Virus record (IMG/VR): IMGVR_UViG_3300045988_175607
Location: 1 to 47,955 of that record
Source of the DNA: a virus
DNA length: 47,955 nucleotides
Reading direction: 5' to 3' (one strand)
Shown here piece after piece: positions 5,374 to 6,635 of this stretch. Below the pieces are notes generated by a model, which saw only the letters and a list, made by a program, of their open reading frames with translations, searched no databases and had not been told where the DNA came from. A program made the position numbers and the translations under genes. How positions within the stretch are numbered: position 1 is the first letter of the stretch; each line of letters starts with the position of its first letter.

Positions 5374-6306
5374 ATGAATTTCACAAGAATTTTAAAAATG
5401 GGTATGTCAGGCAACGACGTACTTTATATAAAAAAGAAATTATTTGATTTAGGTTATTTCGCAAAAAATGTTAAAAAAATAACAAGTAAAGCTTTTCGTA
5501 AAGACACTTATAATGCAGTAATATTTTTTCAAGGCCGCAATCAAGATAAATATGGCAGAGATTTAGAGGCTGATGGAATTATTGGCCAATTAACTTGGGA
5601 TGCCATTGAAAAAGTACATGCACAAGAAATAACAGTAAAACCTGATAAACCAATAGATAATGAAATATTAAAGAAAATTGATTCTTATACACATATTTCA
5701 AAAGTTAAACGTGAAAAAATTAAAGCTGATCTGCGCGGCGTAAGTGAATTGCGCCAATAGATTTGTATAGAAATATTAAATTATGCGTATGATCAAGATG
5801 TACCCGGAAATGTCCGCGCACTTTACATGATTGGTGCTAATTTATATAATAAAGATTTAAAACTCAACATTCCAACAGAGTCTGATATAAAAAGGTAGGC
5901 AAAATCGCGCCCAACATATTATAATGGTGGACGTATGGAATGGATGATTGAACAAGTGCGACGCAATCCTAATATACCTTCTTCCGATTGTTCAGGCATG
6001 GAAGTGGGCTATATGCGTAAACATGGTTTAGTTTCTAATTCTTTTGATACTACTGCAAATAATCTCTGTTTAAAATCAGCTTATTCCACAAATATCACTC
6101 GCGCGCAACTATAGCCGGGCGATTGGGTCGGTAAAAATGGGCATATTGGGACCTATGTTGGTGGTGGTTATGTTGTAGAATTTTATGGTGGAGCTTTTGG
6201 ATGCCAATTAACCAATGTAGATAATCGCATTGGTTGGAATTTTGTGACCAAAAAGAAAGAGCGCGGTGGGGTCTGGACTAGGTTCCGTCGTCCTAAAACA
6301 TATTGA
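5374..6306 (+). CDS. endolysin: N-terminal peptidoglycan-binding domain plus C-terminal NlpC/P60 (CHAP-like) peptidase; needs 3 TAG codons read as sense
   Basis: PG_binding motif GNDVLYIKKKLFDLGYF...DGIIGQLTWDAI. After the TAG at 5758 the frame continues through SDCSGMEV (Cys nucleophile) and GDWVGKNGHIGTYVGGGYVVEF (His) to the TGA at 6304. In-frame TAGs at 5758, 5896 and 6112. Confidence 0.8.
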
Positions 6307-6308
6307 TT

Positions 6309-6635
6309 ATGAAACAAAAAAAGAAAAACACTGAGTTTTCAAAAAAACTTTTAATCCAAGAGTCCATATTAATATGGATCACCACCTTAACATTTTTAGT
6401 TCTCGCAGTTTTTTGTATTTTTCGCGATTATATTGGAGAATTACCTTGGCTCACCGCAATGATTGCTTTTCCTTGGGCGGCTTATGGCGTCAGCCAAGCT
6501 TGGTATTATAAGAAGAGTTTGGGTGAAAACACCAAAGATGGTATTACTTATGAGAGTATGCTCCAGGAGTGGAAAGATAAATAGGTGCGCGGTAAAGCAG
6601 AATTTGATGAGAGCGCAGAAGAGTCTGATGAATAA
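6309..6635 (+). CDS. holin-like small membrane protein (2 TM helices, charged C-terminal tail); 1 in-frame TAG
   Basis: Hydrophobic ILIWITTLTFLVLAVFCIF and LPWLTAMIAFPWAAYGVSQAW. The TAG at 6582 is followed by 16 in-frame codons (VRGKAEFDESAEESDE) to TAA. Lies immediately after the endolysin. Confidence 0.65.

What the first reader, a model, noticed from the sequence alone, without database searches (positions are those of the whole stretch)
5374..6635. Lysis cassette (PG-binding plus NlpC/P60 endolysin and a 2-TM holin) is TAG-dependent
Three TAGs interrupt the endolysin before and inside the catalytic NlpC/P60 domain, and one precedes the charged holin tail. Production of active lysin therefore requires TAG suppression, a built-in way to delay lysis until recoding is active, as proposed for other stop-codon-recoded phages.
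Basis: partly seen in the sequence, partly recalled or inferred. Interest (0 to 1): 0.55.

Follow-up and report, generated by a model that had tools for sequence, protein, structure and literature searches.

The report
Amber-recoded phage lysis cassette
A large gut phage that reads the stop codon TAG as glutamine has TAG codons inside its cell-wall-cutting enzyme, so no active enzyme can be made until a suppressor tRNA is available; this is a clear new example of an already published idea, not a new one.

Summary
ORF 5374-6306 has in-frame TAGs at 5758, 5896 and 6112 (codons 129, 175, 247). The next ORF, 6309-6635, has one at 6582 (codon 92).

- **TAG means Gln.** In relatives, TAG aligns with CAA or CAG at 19 of 21 variable sites. 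Sequence after the TAGs is under purifying selection.
- **The downstream protein is probably a holin.** It belongs to an unnamed 614-member family that sits directly after endolysins of three catalytic types.
- **Its own TAG matters less.** It precedes only a variable tail and is CAG/CAA or absent in relatives. The holin has no ribosome-binding site and starts 2 nt after the endolysin stop, so it may be gated through translational coupling.
- **The cassette is a TAG island.** It sits among TAG-free replication genes, behind a covarying terminator hairpin.
- **A tRNA(CUA) exists in a related 162-kb genome,** not in the window.

Homing endonucleases, RuvC and structural genes also carry TAGs. 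The lysis-timing role is the published Borges et al. hypothesis and remains inference. This is a new member of a known kind.

The parts
5320..5358 (+). Conserved stem-loop followed by a T-run, lying between the PhoH-like gene's stop and the endolysin ribosome-binding site. Candidate intrinsic terminator or insulator.
   Evidence: The palindrome AAAAGGGTAAGGAAAA/TTTTTCCTTACCCTTTT plus TTTTTT is read directly and flagged by the scan. In 7 relatives, 9 of 16 predicted pairs keep pairing through changes on both sides.
5357..5363 (+). Shine-Dalgarno sequence AAAGGAG of the endolysin.
   Evidence: Invariant in all 7 aligned relatives.
5374..6306 (+). Endolysin gene, 310 codons, read with TAG = Gln.
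   Evidence: There are 433 homologues, many full length. The AF2 model of the 99%-identical P0001 has pLDDT 92.2. Third-position substitution bias continues after the TAGs.
5407..5607 (+). PG_binding_1 domain (aa 12-78).
5758..5760 (+). In-frame TAG 1 (codon 129), in helix 125-135 of the middle region.
   Evidence: It is CAA in L004.
5896..5898 (+). In-frame TAG 2 (codon 175).
   Evidence: It is kept as TAG in L001-L004 and in L014 (76% aa identity), and is a Gln codon in L015 and L016.
5941..6303 (+). Divergent NlpC/P60-fold peptidase domain, about aa 190-310. Cys206 is at 5989-5991 (TGT), His257 at 6142-6144 (CAT), and Glu269 is also invariant.
6112..6114 (+). In-frame TAG 3 (codon 247), in the L-Q-PGD motif between the catalytic Cys and His.
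   Evidence: Most standard-code homologues have Q here. It is TAG in L001-L004 and a Gln codon in L014.
6309..6635 (+). Holin candidate, 108 codons. It has a basic N-terminus, TM1 at aa 19-38 (6363-6422), a weaker TM2 at aa 46-65 (6444-6503), and a charged tail. It has no Shine-Dalgarno sequence and starts 2 nt after the endolysin stop.
   Evidence: The family has 614 members, all unnamed. Family members lie directly downstream of NlpC/P60, CHAP and Amidase_2 endolysins.
6582..6584 (+). In-frame TAG (holin codon 92), just before the 16-aa acidic tail.
   Evidence: It is CAG in L004 and has no TAG in L014. L084 also has a TAG at its codon 92, before an acidic tail.
6648..6680 (+). Terminator-like hairpin plus T-run that closes the cassette.
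   Evidence: 11-bp stem with 5 G-C pairs, followed by TTATTTTATT.
6860..6888 (+). Perfect sigma-70-type promoter (TTGACA-17-TATAAT with TG) in front of TAG-free gyrB. This is context that marks the next, standard-code transcription unit.

Best explanation
The window comes from a roughly 160-180 kb phage of gut Clostridia that uses genetic code 15 (TAG = Gln) in a subset of its genes.

The cassette at 5374-6635 encodes two proteins. The first is an endolysin made of PG_binding_1, a helical region and a divergent NlpC/P60 peptidase domain. The second is a small two-TM holin-like protein whose translation appears coupled to the endolysin's.

Under the host's standard code, ribosomes stop at codon 129 and make only the wall-binding part. 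Even internal initiation could not give an active enzyme, because TAG-247 lies between the catalytic Cys206 and His257. Full-length enzyme therefore needs an amber suppressor tRNA(CUA). One is encoded in a closely related genome about 16 kb upstream of the window's equivalent start.

The holin has no ribosome-binding site and starts 2 nt after the endolysin stop. Its translation probably depends on ribosomes that have read through all three TAGs.

Shown here: the TAGs, TAG = Gln, the domain folds, the split active site, the island pattern, and the conserved upstream hairpin.

Inferred: host identity and code, translational coupling, terminator function, that the window's own genome carries the tRNA, and that the arrangement serves to time or safeguard lysis.
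For: TAG = Gln:
- At 5758, L004 has CAA. At 6582, L004 has CAG. L004 has TAG where the window has a Gln codon at position 194.
- Across orthologous genes, 19 of 21 distinct TAG-variable sites pair with CAA or CAG.

Translation past the TAGs:
- Window versus L004, aa 130-310: differences by codon position are 12, 9 and 46, with 40 synonymous and 15 non-synonymous codon changes.
- The C-terminal domain is the most conserved part of 45 homologues.

Folds and active site:
- C206, H257 and E269 are invariant.

Code use across the window:
- 54 TAG against 519 CAA/CAG in 56 genes. No gene needs TAG as its stop. The distribution is strongly heterogeneous (permutation p<5e-5).
- PolIII alpha (1685 aa), DnaB, primase, GyrB/A and ligase have no TAG.
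- The minus-strand structural block is TAG-rich.

Island pattern.

Suppressor tRNA: ARAGORN finds anticodon CTA at L013 2451-2525, and its minimum-energy fold is a cloverleaf.

Holin: family association with three endolysin types and the stop/start junction.

Host: a 174,861-bp contig 93% identical in the endolysin was binned with a Clostridium MAG, and 36-44% identical homologues lie in Clostridia chromosomes.

Published model: 10.1101/2021.08.26.457843.
Against: - No tRNA is present in the window or in its 10-kb flanks in relatives.
- The tRNA(CUA) comes from a relative, is found in only one IMG/VR contig, and was not reported by Rfam at its gathering score.
- That tRNA has a consensus sigma-70 promoter. 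This suggests host RNA polymerase could express it early, which weakens a simple 'late switch'.
- TAG positions are not fixed. Between the window and L004, 3 of the 5 cassette TAG sites differ.
- TAG density is higher in homing endonucleases, RuvC and ORF 41300-41800 than in the cassette.
- No known holin family matches.
- No expression or activity data exist.
Confidence: 0.75

Rival explanations
1. Neutral tolerance. TAG is simply one more Gln codon that drifts into any gene translated after the suppressor is present. CAG to TAG is a single C-to-T change, favoured in a 31% GC genome. Selection acts only to keep TAG out of early genes. The cassette's TAGs then have no timing function of their own.
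For: - TAG sites turn over at about the synonymous rate: 3 of 5 cassette sites differ between the window and L004, and positions differ in L014-L016.
- The holin TAG is not conserved and precedes a variable tail.
- TAG is equally or more frequent in structural genes, RuvC and homing endonucleases.
- Cassette against the whole window gives only p=0.066.
Against: - Every recoded lineage examined keeps at least one TAG in the endolysin, whatever its catalytic type (8 of 8).
- The cassette sits on the same strand as TAG-free genes and between them. Its TAG content therefore marks it out from its transcriptional neighbourhood.
- This rival still accepts that the enzyme depends on suppression. It disputes only the adaptive purpose.
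Confidence: 0.35
2. The holin itself is TAG-dependent in cis. Stopping at codon 92 would give a non-functional or mistimed holin, because the acidic tail is needed.
For: - The tail ...AEFDESAEESDE is conserved among close relatives, and EESDE is kept even in the divergent L015 protein.
- L084 has a TAG at its codon 92, also before an acidic tail.
- C-terminal charged tails are known to tune holin timing (general knowledge of lambda S, not tested here).
Against: - The family's conserved core is aa 9-82. Tails beyond about aa 90 vary in length and sequence, and some are only about 6 residues long.
- The codon is CAG in L004 and has no TAG in L014.
- A 91-aa product keeps both TM segments.
Confidence: 0.2
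3. TAG encodes something other than Gln (pyrrolysine, as ARAGORN's label suggests, or Lys/Glu), or is bypassed.
For: - ARAGORN labels any CTA anticodon 'tRNA-Pyl'.
- At codon 129, distant homologues have K, E, D or R as often as Q.
Against: - 19 of 21 TAG-variable orthologous sites pair with CAA/CAG. One pairs with AAA and one with AAT.
- Codon 247 is Q in most standard-code homologues.
- No Pyl biosynthesis domains appeared in any Pfam or PHROG scan of the window.
Confidence: 0.03
4. The cassette is a decayed pseudogene, or a set of separate short ORFs, in a standard-code genome. TAGs would then be true stops.
For: A standard ORF list shows only 5374-5760 (128 aa) and 6303-6584.
Against: - The frame stays open for 182 codons after the first TAG (P about 4e-8).
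- Purifying selection acts downstream of the TAGs.
- TAG interchanges with CAA/CAG in relatives.
- The same TAGs occur in independent assemblies.
- TAGs also sit in conserved residues of RuvC, RecJ, GIY-YIG and structural genes.
- The fragment after TAG-247 lacks the catalytic Cys.
Confidence: 0.01

Closest known systems
Stop-codon-recoded gut phages with preferentially recoded lysis genes (Borges et al., bioRxiv 10.1101/2021.08.26.457843; crAss-like, Agate, Jade and Sapphire clades)
   Same: - TAG is reassigned to Gln in a phage of a presumed standard-code host.
- Replication genes stay in standard code, while structural and lysis genes carry in-frame stops.
- A homing endonuclease inside an early gene is heavily recoded, here the GIY-YIG ORF in gyrB with 6 TAGs.
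- A phage-encoded suppressor tRNA is present.
- The genome size (162-180 kb) and the scattered alternatively coded modules resemble the Firmicutes-infecting Jade and Sapphire descriptions.
   Different: - Clade membership was not tested.
- The lysis genes differ. Here they are a PG_binding_1 plus NlpC/P60-fold endolysin and a novel TM protein for a monoderm host. The crAss-like case has an amidase plus spanin.
- No tRNA synthetase or release factor 'code-change module' lies next to the cassette.
- The cassette sits alone between PhoH-like and gyrB genes, behind a conserved hairpin.
- No match exists in the GenBank phage collection by DNA or protein.
Code-15 crAss-like phages validated by metaproteomics (PMC9523058) and the phAss-1 / 'Phassvirus' group (PMC10607447)
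   Same: TAG is read as Gln in human-gut phages. Suppressor tRNA genes are present, and many hallmark ORFs are interrupted by TAG (abstracts seen).
   Different: Different phage lineages and presumably different hosts. No sequence similarity to this window was detected in the phage collection. No proteomic evidence exists for this phage.
NlpC/P60 (MEROPS C40) cell-wall endopeptidases, e.g. B. subtilis LytE/CwlO, C. difficile Acd24020, E. faecium SagA
   Different: - The protein is below the Pfam PF00877 gathering score (16.9 against 23 bits), and the PDB profile E-value is only 0.25.
- It carries a conserved about 90-aa helical region (aa 97-190) with many invariant residues and no family match.
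- Bond specificity is unknown.
Class II (two-TM) phage holins
   Same: It is small (108 aa), with a basic N-terminus, two hydrophobic segments, a charged C-terminal tail and a position adjacent to the endolysin. Family members accompany endolysins with swapped catalytic domains.
   Different: - No sequence match to any Pfam, NCBIfam or PHROG holin family.
- The tail is net acidic rather than basic.
- The gene order is endolysin then holin, with apparent translational coupling.
- TM2 is weakly hydrophobic.

Membership tests
Genetic code 15 (TAG = Gln) recoded phage | In-frame TAG codons inside conserved protein-coding genes, with the frame and conservation continuing downstream. | tested here: met
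   22 of 56 window genes carry TAGs. The endolysin frame stays open for 182 codons after the first TAG (P about 4e-8). Third-position substitution bias continues downstream.
Genetic code 15 (TAG = Gln) recoded phage | TAG aligns with Gln codons or residues in relatives. | tested here: met
   19 of 21 distinct TAG-variable orthologous sites pair with CAA/CAG. Specific cassette sites are shown. Codon 247 is Q in most homologues.
Genetic code 15 (TAG = Gln) recoded phage | TAG is not used as a terminator. | tested here: met
   All 56 curated genes end in TAA (46) or TGA (10). Each standard ORF that 'ends' at TAG continues into a conserved domain: RecJ OB domain, GIY-YIG, NlpC/P60. Gene calls were made with TAG as sense, so this is partly by construction.
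Genetic code 15 (TAG = Gln) recoded phage | A suppressor tRNA with anticodon CUA is encoded by the phage. | tested here: inconclusive
   None in the window. It is present in the related 162,494-bp IMG/VR genome at L013 2451-2525, with a cloverleaf minimum-energy fold. Rfam did not report it at gathering score. The window's own genome outside the window could not be read.
Genetic code 15 (TAG = Gln) recoded phage | The host uses the standard code. | not testable with these tools
   The host is inferred to be Clostridia from a mis-binned MAG contig and chromosomal homologues. That Clostridia use the standard code is general knowledge.
Recoding-gated lysis (Borges et al. model) | Lysis genes carry recoded stops while neighbouring early or replication genes avoid them. 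| tested here: met
   In the window the cassette has 4 TAG to 13 CAA/CAG, against 1 to 80 in flanks (p=0.003). Pooled over seven lineages: 22:116 against 4:137, OR 6.5, p=1.4e-4. Against all window genes the enrichment is only p=0.066.
Recoding-gated lysis (Borges et al. model) | Suppression becomes available only late, so lysis proteins appear late. | not testable with these tools
   No expression data exist. The related tRNA has a consensus sigma-70 promoter followed by a leader hairpin, which does not settle its timing.
PG_binding_1 (PF01471) | Scores above the Pfam gathering threshold and has the three-helix fold. | tested here: met
NlpC/P60 (PF00877 / MEROPS C40) | Sequence match above the family threshold. 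| tested here: not met
   16.9 bits against a cut-off of 23, E 0.0064, though it is the top-ranked family. There was no hit with the full-length protein at E<=0.01. The PDB profile E-value is 0.25.
NlpC/P60 (PF00877 / MEROPS C40) | Papain-like alpha+beta fold. | tested here: met
NlpC/P60 (PF00877 / MEROPS C40) | Conserved catalytic Cys and His, plus a third polar residue. | tested here: met
   C206 (DCSG), H257 (GHIG) and E269 are invariant in 45 homologues. Their assignment as catalytic rests on motif position. It was not checked by superposition of the residues.
NlpC/P60 (PF00877 / MEROPS C40) | Peptidoglycan endopeptidase activity. | not testable with these tools
   Requires a biochemical assay.
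Holin | A small membrane protein with at least one TM segment and a charged hydrophilic C-terminus. | tested here: met
   108 aa. TM1 has a Kyte-Doolittle maximum of 2.7. TM2 is weaker. The 43-aa tail has 7 K/R and 12 D/E.
Holin | Genetic linkage to endolysins across genomes. | tested here: met
   The family lies immediately downstream of NlpC/P60-fold (window, L001-L004, L014, L016), CHAP (L085) and Amidase_2/lysozyme (L084, L086) endolysins.
Holin | Membership of a described holin family. | tested here: not met
   No Pfam, PHROG or NCBIfam match even at permissive E-values. Of the 614 homologues (best 120 listed), none of the few that carry a source name is called a holin.
Holin | Forms membrane lesions that release or activate the endolysin. 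| not testable with these tools
   Requires an experiment.

The most novel reading that the evidence does not exclude
The cassette may be a layered fail-safe, conserved across a broad group of 160-190 kb Clostridia phages that keep PhoH - endolysin - holin - gyrB synteny. Three layers would act together:
1. A covarying terminator hairpin sits directly in front of the endolysin ribosome-binding site, so transcripts from the early region must read through it.
2. Amber codons split the endolysin active site.
3. The holin, which is the actual lysis clock, has no ribosome-binding site of its own. It is translated only by ribosomes that have decoded every TAG in the upstream gene.

Suppressor-tRNA abundance would then set holin dosage, and so lysis time, through translational coupling. 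This would explain why lysis genes can sit inside an early, same-strand gene block.
Probability: 0.3. Interest if true: 0.55.

Novelty: new member of a known kind. Interest (0 to 1): 0.4.

Why it matters
- **A clean test case.** One codon (247) separates the two catalytic residues, so dependence on suppression follows from the sequence alone. The construct is small enough to test directly.
- **Extension to monoderm hosts.** It extends recoded lysis genes to a holin-endolysin pair of a likely monoderm (Clostridia) host, and to an uncharacterised endolysin family and holin family found only in metagenomes.
- **A testable coupling mechanism.** The stop/start junction suggests how amber codons in one gene could gate the next gene.
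- **Annotation.** Standard-code gene callers split these endolysins, as in the JGI calls in L084. Lysin-mining pipelines will therefore miss or truncate them.
- **Limit.** It does not change the general picture already published.

Tried and rejected
- **tRNA scans.** The window and the flanks of seven related loci gave nothing. The tRNA(CUA) appeared only after walking about 16 kb upstream in an IMG/VR relative.
- **tRNA pattern scan.** An exact-pattern scan of IMG/VR for that tRNA found only the same contig.
- **Rfam at gathering thresholds.** The window and L013 1-10000 gave no hits. This means no group I intron call and no tRNA call.
- **GenBank phage collection.** There was no match to the cassette by blastn, to 24.9 kb of the replication module by megablast, or to the endolysin by tblastn.
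- **Base after sense TAGs.** The counts were A18, G15, C12, T9, not different from codons in general, so there is no evidence of a special suppression context.
- **Promoter before the cassette.** No sigma-70-like promoter lies directly upstream. The intergenic space is filled by the hairpin.
- **Coding-density comparison.** Comparing codes on short loci did not discriminate between them.
- **Rejected readings.** Pseudogene, sequencing error and pyrrolysine were all rejected (see the rival explanations).
- **Failed call.** One Pfam call failed because an ORF contained a TAG.
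Full report
**1. What is in the sequence**

ORF 5374-6306 (+) starts at an ATG 10 nt after AAAGGAG and ends at TGA. It contains in-frame TAGs at 5758, 5896 and 6112, which are codons 129, 175 and 247.

Two nucleotides after its stop, ORF 6309-6635 begins. It has 108 codons, ends at TAA, and carries a TAG at 6582, codon 92. A standard ORF list shows only the fragments 5374-5760 and 6303-6584.

In the two non-coding frames of this window's genes, TAA/TGA occur at 0.089 per codon. The chance of 182 open codons after the first TAG is therefore about 4e-8. The 17-codon holin extension alone would be open by chance about 20% of the time.

**2. TAG is a sense codon for glutamine**

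Four related contigs of 122-180 kb from human-gut metagenomes carry the same cassette. They are 87-97% identical to the window in DNA. In the collection their genes were called with TAG as sense, since the locus does not translate to the stored protein under table 11.

L001-L003 have the same four TAGs. In L004, 5758 is CAA and 6582 is CAG, and a new TAG sits where the window has a Gln codon at position 194.

I compared orthologous codons over 36 window genes in nine related loci. TAG aligns with a different codon at 21 distinct sites. Of these, 19 are CAA or CAG, one is AAA and one is AAT.

Downstream of the TAGs, substitutions are concentrated at third positions. For window versus L004 over aa 130-310, the counts by codon position are 12, 9 and 46, with 40 synonymous and 15 non-synonymous codon changes.

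Pseudogene, sequencing error and a non-Gln meaning are therefore rejected.

**3. What the proteins are**

*Endolysin, N-terminus.* The N-terminus is PG_binding_1:
- Pfam E 9.3e-6, aa 12-78.
- PHROG endolysin families match the same stretch.
- PDB profile hits include phiKZ gp144 and AP3 endolysin.

*Endolysin, C-terminus.* Pfam does not recognise the C-terminal half in the full protein. As an isolated fragment, NLPC_P60 is the best hit but is sub-threshold, at 16.9 bits against a cut-off of 23 on aa 200-269.

An AlphaFold2 model was built from 45 homologues for P0001, which is 99% identical to the window protein. It has pLDDT 92.2 and pTM 0.72.

Cys206 (DCSG; 5989-5991), His257 (GHIG; 6142-6144) and Glu269 are invariant in 45 homologues.

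Between the two domains lies a conserved helical region, aa 97-190, with many invariant residues and no family match.

NlpC/P60 holds at the level of fold and catalytic motifs, but not at the level of formal Pfam membership.

*Position of the TAGs.* TAG-129 and TAG-175 lie in the helical region, before the peptidase core. TAG-247 lies in the L-Q-PGD motif, between the Cys and the His.

*Consequence.* Under the standard code the only product from the real start is 128 aa, comprising the binding domain plus two helices. No alternative start could give a product holding both Cys206 and His257. It was not tested experimentally.

*The second protein.* It has the following features:
- a basic N-terminus;
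- a strongly hydrophobic TM1 (aa 19-38);
- a short loop;
- a weaker, aromatic-rich TM2 (aa 46-65);
- a 43-aa charged tail.

It matches no Pfam, PHROG or NCBIfam family. It has 614 database relatives. Among the 120 best that are listed, only a few carry a source name, and none of those is called a holin.

The conserved core is aa 9-82. The tail beyond about aa 90 varies in length and sequence.

The strongest evidence for a holin role is linkage. Members of this family lie immediately downstream of endolysins of different catalytic types, in a conserved PhoH - endolysin - TM protein - gyrB neighbourhood:
- the NlpC/P60-fold type here;
- PG_binding_1 plus CHAP in L085;
- Amidase_2 plus lysozyme in L084 and L086.

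In more distant homologues of the endolysin, a small TM protein with a charged tail also follows it (L005, L007). Those TM proteins show little resemblance to the window's. L015 likewise has a divergent TM protein that shares only the EESDE C-terminus.

**4. How TAG is distributed**

With TAG read as sense, I curated 56 genes. They hold 54 TAG and 519 CAA/CAG codons. All end in TAA (46) or TGA (10). Twenty-two genes contain TAG, and the distribution is far from even (permutation p<5e-5).

*TAG-free genes:*
- PolIII alpha (1685 aa, with an intein), DnaB and the primase-like Toprim protein.
- An SF1 helicase, GyrB, GyrA, NAD-ligase and guanylate kinase.
- All but one of the eight genes upstream of the cassette; the exception is the 63-codon ORF 1607-1798, with one TAG.

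*TAG-bearing genes:*
- Two GIY-YIG proteins (6 and 3 TAGs).
- An HNH homing endonuclease (5) and RuvC (5).
- The membrane/coiled-coil ORF 41300-41800, where 5 of 6 Gln-class codons are TAG.
- RecJ (3) and NrdG (1).
- Nine of the ten curated minus-strand genes from 41.8 kb onward; 45893-46699 has none.

That minus-strand block continues beyond the window into giant genes. These include a Laminin_G_3 protein that looks like a tail fibre, and they also use TAG.

The cassette has 4 TAG out of 17 Gln-class codons. Three comparisons follow:
- Against the whole window this is only marginal (p=0.066).
- Against its same-strand neighbours it is clear, at 4:13 against 1:80 (p=0.003).
- Pooled over seven diverged lineages, with the immediate flanks as control, it is 22:116 against 4:137 (OR 6.5, p=1.4e-4). 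These lineages are not fully independent.

Every recoded lineage examined has at least one TAG in its endolysin, although positions differ:
- window and L001-L003: codons 129, 175, 247;
- L004: 175, 194, 247;
- L014: 53 and 175;
- L015: about 193;
- L016: in the linker;
- L084: at least 1;
- L085: 1;
- L086: 7.

A distant standard-code relative (L007, where three genes end in TAG) and L005 have none.

**5. Context that bears on mechanism**

*Upstream hairpin.* A stem-loop with a T-run (5320-5358) fills the space between the PhoH-like gene and the endolysin ribosome-binding site. In seven relatives down to 60% protein identity, the stem is kept through changes on both sides at 9 of 16 pairs. 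A second terminator-like hairpin follows the cassette at 6648-6680. A perfect sigma-70 promoter at 6860-6888 then precedes gyrB. No promoter-like site fits between the first hairpin and the endolysin start. Transcripts therefore probably have to read through the hairpin, which is an inference.

*Translational coupling.* The holin has no Shine-Dalgarno sequence and starts 1-3 nt after the endolysin stop, or overlaps it, in the window, L001, L004, L014, L015 and L005. In L016 and L007 a spacer with a Shine-Dalgarno-like sequence is present. This suggests termination-reinitiation coupling. If so, the endolysin's TAGs also limit holin translation, which is again an inference.

*Suppressor tRNA.* No tRNA lies in the window or in the nearby flanks of its close relatives; the distant standard-code relatives L005 and L007 carry ordinary tRNAs, none with a CUA anticodon. 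Walking upstream in the related 162,494-bp IMG/VR genome found a tRNA with anticodon CTA. That genome is 95% identical in the first window protein. The tRNA lies about 16 kb before the window's equivalent start, on the same strand, among TAG-free ORFs.

It folds as a cloverleaf with anticodon loop CUCUAAA. Reading that fold by eye, its first acceptor pair appears mismatched (U1 opposite C) and the next base, a G, would be the discriminator. This is compatible with Gln identity as known from E. coli (own knowledge), not proof of it. It is preceded by TTGACA-17-TATAAT and a leader hairpin.

There are three cautions. Rfam did not report the tRNA at its gathering score. Only one IMG/VR contig has it. 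The window's own genome outside the window could not be checked.

*Host.* A 174,861-bp contig with a 93% identical endolysin was binned with a Clostridium MAG. Homologues at 36-44% identity lie in Oscillospiraceae, Christensenellaceae and other Clostridia chromosomes. A monoderm host fits a two-gene cassette without spanins.

**6. Comparison with what is known**

Borges et al. (10.1101/2021.08.26.457843) describe exactly this pattern:
- Recoded stops accumulate in structural and lysis genes.
- Replication genes often remain in standard code.
- Lysis genes are preferentially recoded in two clades.
- An intron homing endonuclease in an early gene is preferentially recoded.
- Phage suppressor tRNAs are present.
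- They propose that recoding times or safeguards lysis.

They also describe large Firmicutes-infecting clades whose alternatively coded modules are scattered across the genome.

The window reproduces each element, including the heavily recoded GIY-YIG ORF inside gyrB. TAG = Gln has been confirmed by metaproteomics in crAss-like phages (PMC9523058, abstract).

What is particular here:
- the lineage has no match in the GenBank phage collection;
- the endolysin and holin families are uncharacterised;
- the active site is split by a TAG;
- the cassette sits alone inside the replication block;
- the upstream hairpin is conserved;
- the holin appears translationally coupled.

**7. Verdict**

Dependence of active endolysin on amber suppression is well supported by the sequence.

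The holin's own TAG is weak evidence, because it precedes a variable tail and is not conserved. The holin may instead be gated indirectly.

The claim that this is a device to delay lysis is consistent with the island pattern across lineages. It cannot be separated here from simple tolerance of TAG in late-translated genes. TAG is also not special to lysis genes in this genome.

This is a new member of a known kind, with moderate interest.

Noticed in passing
window 6925-10035 (gyrB; insertion about 8668-9850, including GIY-YIG ORF 8850-9725): gyrB is interrupted. Exon 1 ends ...INRNKG* at 8667, and the GyrB C-terminal domain (PF00986) resumes in 9697-10035 at ...LGECLLEPATR. This recreates the KG|LGE motif. 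The insertion carries a GIY-YIG ORF with 6 TAGs. Relative L003 lacks that ORF but still has a short insertion, and L002 has a different arrangement. It looks like a mobile intron with an optional homing endonuclease, but Rfam reports no group I intron.
   Followed up: partly
window 33422-37162: nrdD is in three consecutive pieces that match NRDD profile positions 1-261 (33422-34600), 263-444 (35097-35693) and 445-562 (36779-37162). The intervening ORFs 34656-34976 and 35903-36607 have no family match and no TAG. This suggests two more intervening elements.
   Followed up: partly
window 27703-32760: DNA polymerase III alpha (1685 aa, no TAG) contains an intein-like insertion. Pfam Intein_splicing matches aa 533-855 below its threshold, between the NTPase and finger domains.
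   Followed up: no
window 40721-41800: RuvC (5 TAGs) and the adjacent ORF 41300-41800 are the most TAG-dense genes of the plus-strand block. The ORF has one hydrophobic segment plus a coiled-coil-like region and matches PHROG 4257 of unknown function. Five of its 6 Gln-class codons are TAG. They sit right at the strand switch.
   Followed up: no
window 41800-47955 (minus strand) and L009 1-10000: Gene orientation and GC skew flip at about 41.8 kb. Nine of the ten curated minus-strand genes contain TAG. The block continues outside the window into giant proteins of 604, 918 (Laminin_G_3) and 2503 aa, probably tail fibres.
   Followed up: partly
L013 2381-2620 (related IMG/VR genome, about 16 kb upstream of the window's equivalent start): The amber suppressor tRNA has a consensus sigma-70 promoter and a terminator-like leader hairpin immediately before its 5' end. 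It is followed by about 90 nt of unassigned sequence ending in its own hairpin plus T-run. The upstream neighbour is a DUF2828/DUF7788 protein, which is also found near the endolysin in the distant relatives L005 and L007.
   Followed up: partly
window 5662-5940 (endolysin aa 97-190): A conserved helical region between the binding and peptidase domains has many invariant residues (Y105, H107, R113, R127, E133, Y137, D140, R148, Y151, N156, Y158) and matches no known family. It may be part of the substrate groove or a separate function.
   Followed up: no
L084 606-3309 (JGI contig Ga0123348_10000517): Standard-code gene calls split a recoded endolysin into 715-aa and 59-aa pieces and cut the holin at its TAG (91 aa instead of 102 aa). 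This is an annotation artefact that will affect lysin mining in public metagenomes.
   Followed up: yes
window 1800-3125 and 3431-4816: Two paralogous radical-SAM-like proteins (both match PHROG 1802) lie just upstream of the PhoH-like gene and the lysis cassette. Their function is unknown and they are TAG-free.
   Followed up: no
window 17242-18213: A 294-aa ORF on the minus strand (17329-18213) almost fully overlaps the 308-aa plus-strand gene 17242-18168 (PHROG 2367). The region has relatively high GC for this window (0.39). It is probably a chance antisense ORF.
   Followed up: no
window 15020-15988: A GIY-YIG domain (aa 233-314) is fused to an N-terminal hydrophobic segment and a long coiled-coil-like region. 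It has 3 TAGs. This is an unusual architecture for a homing endonuclease.
   Followed up: no
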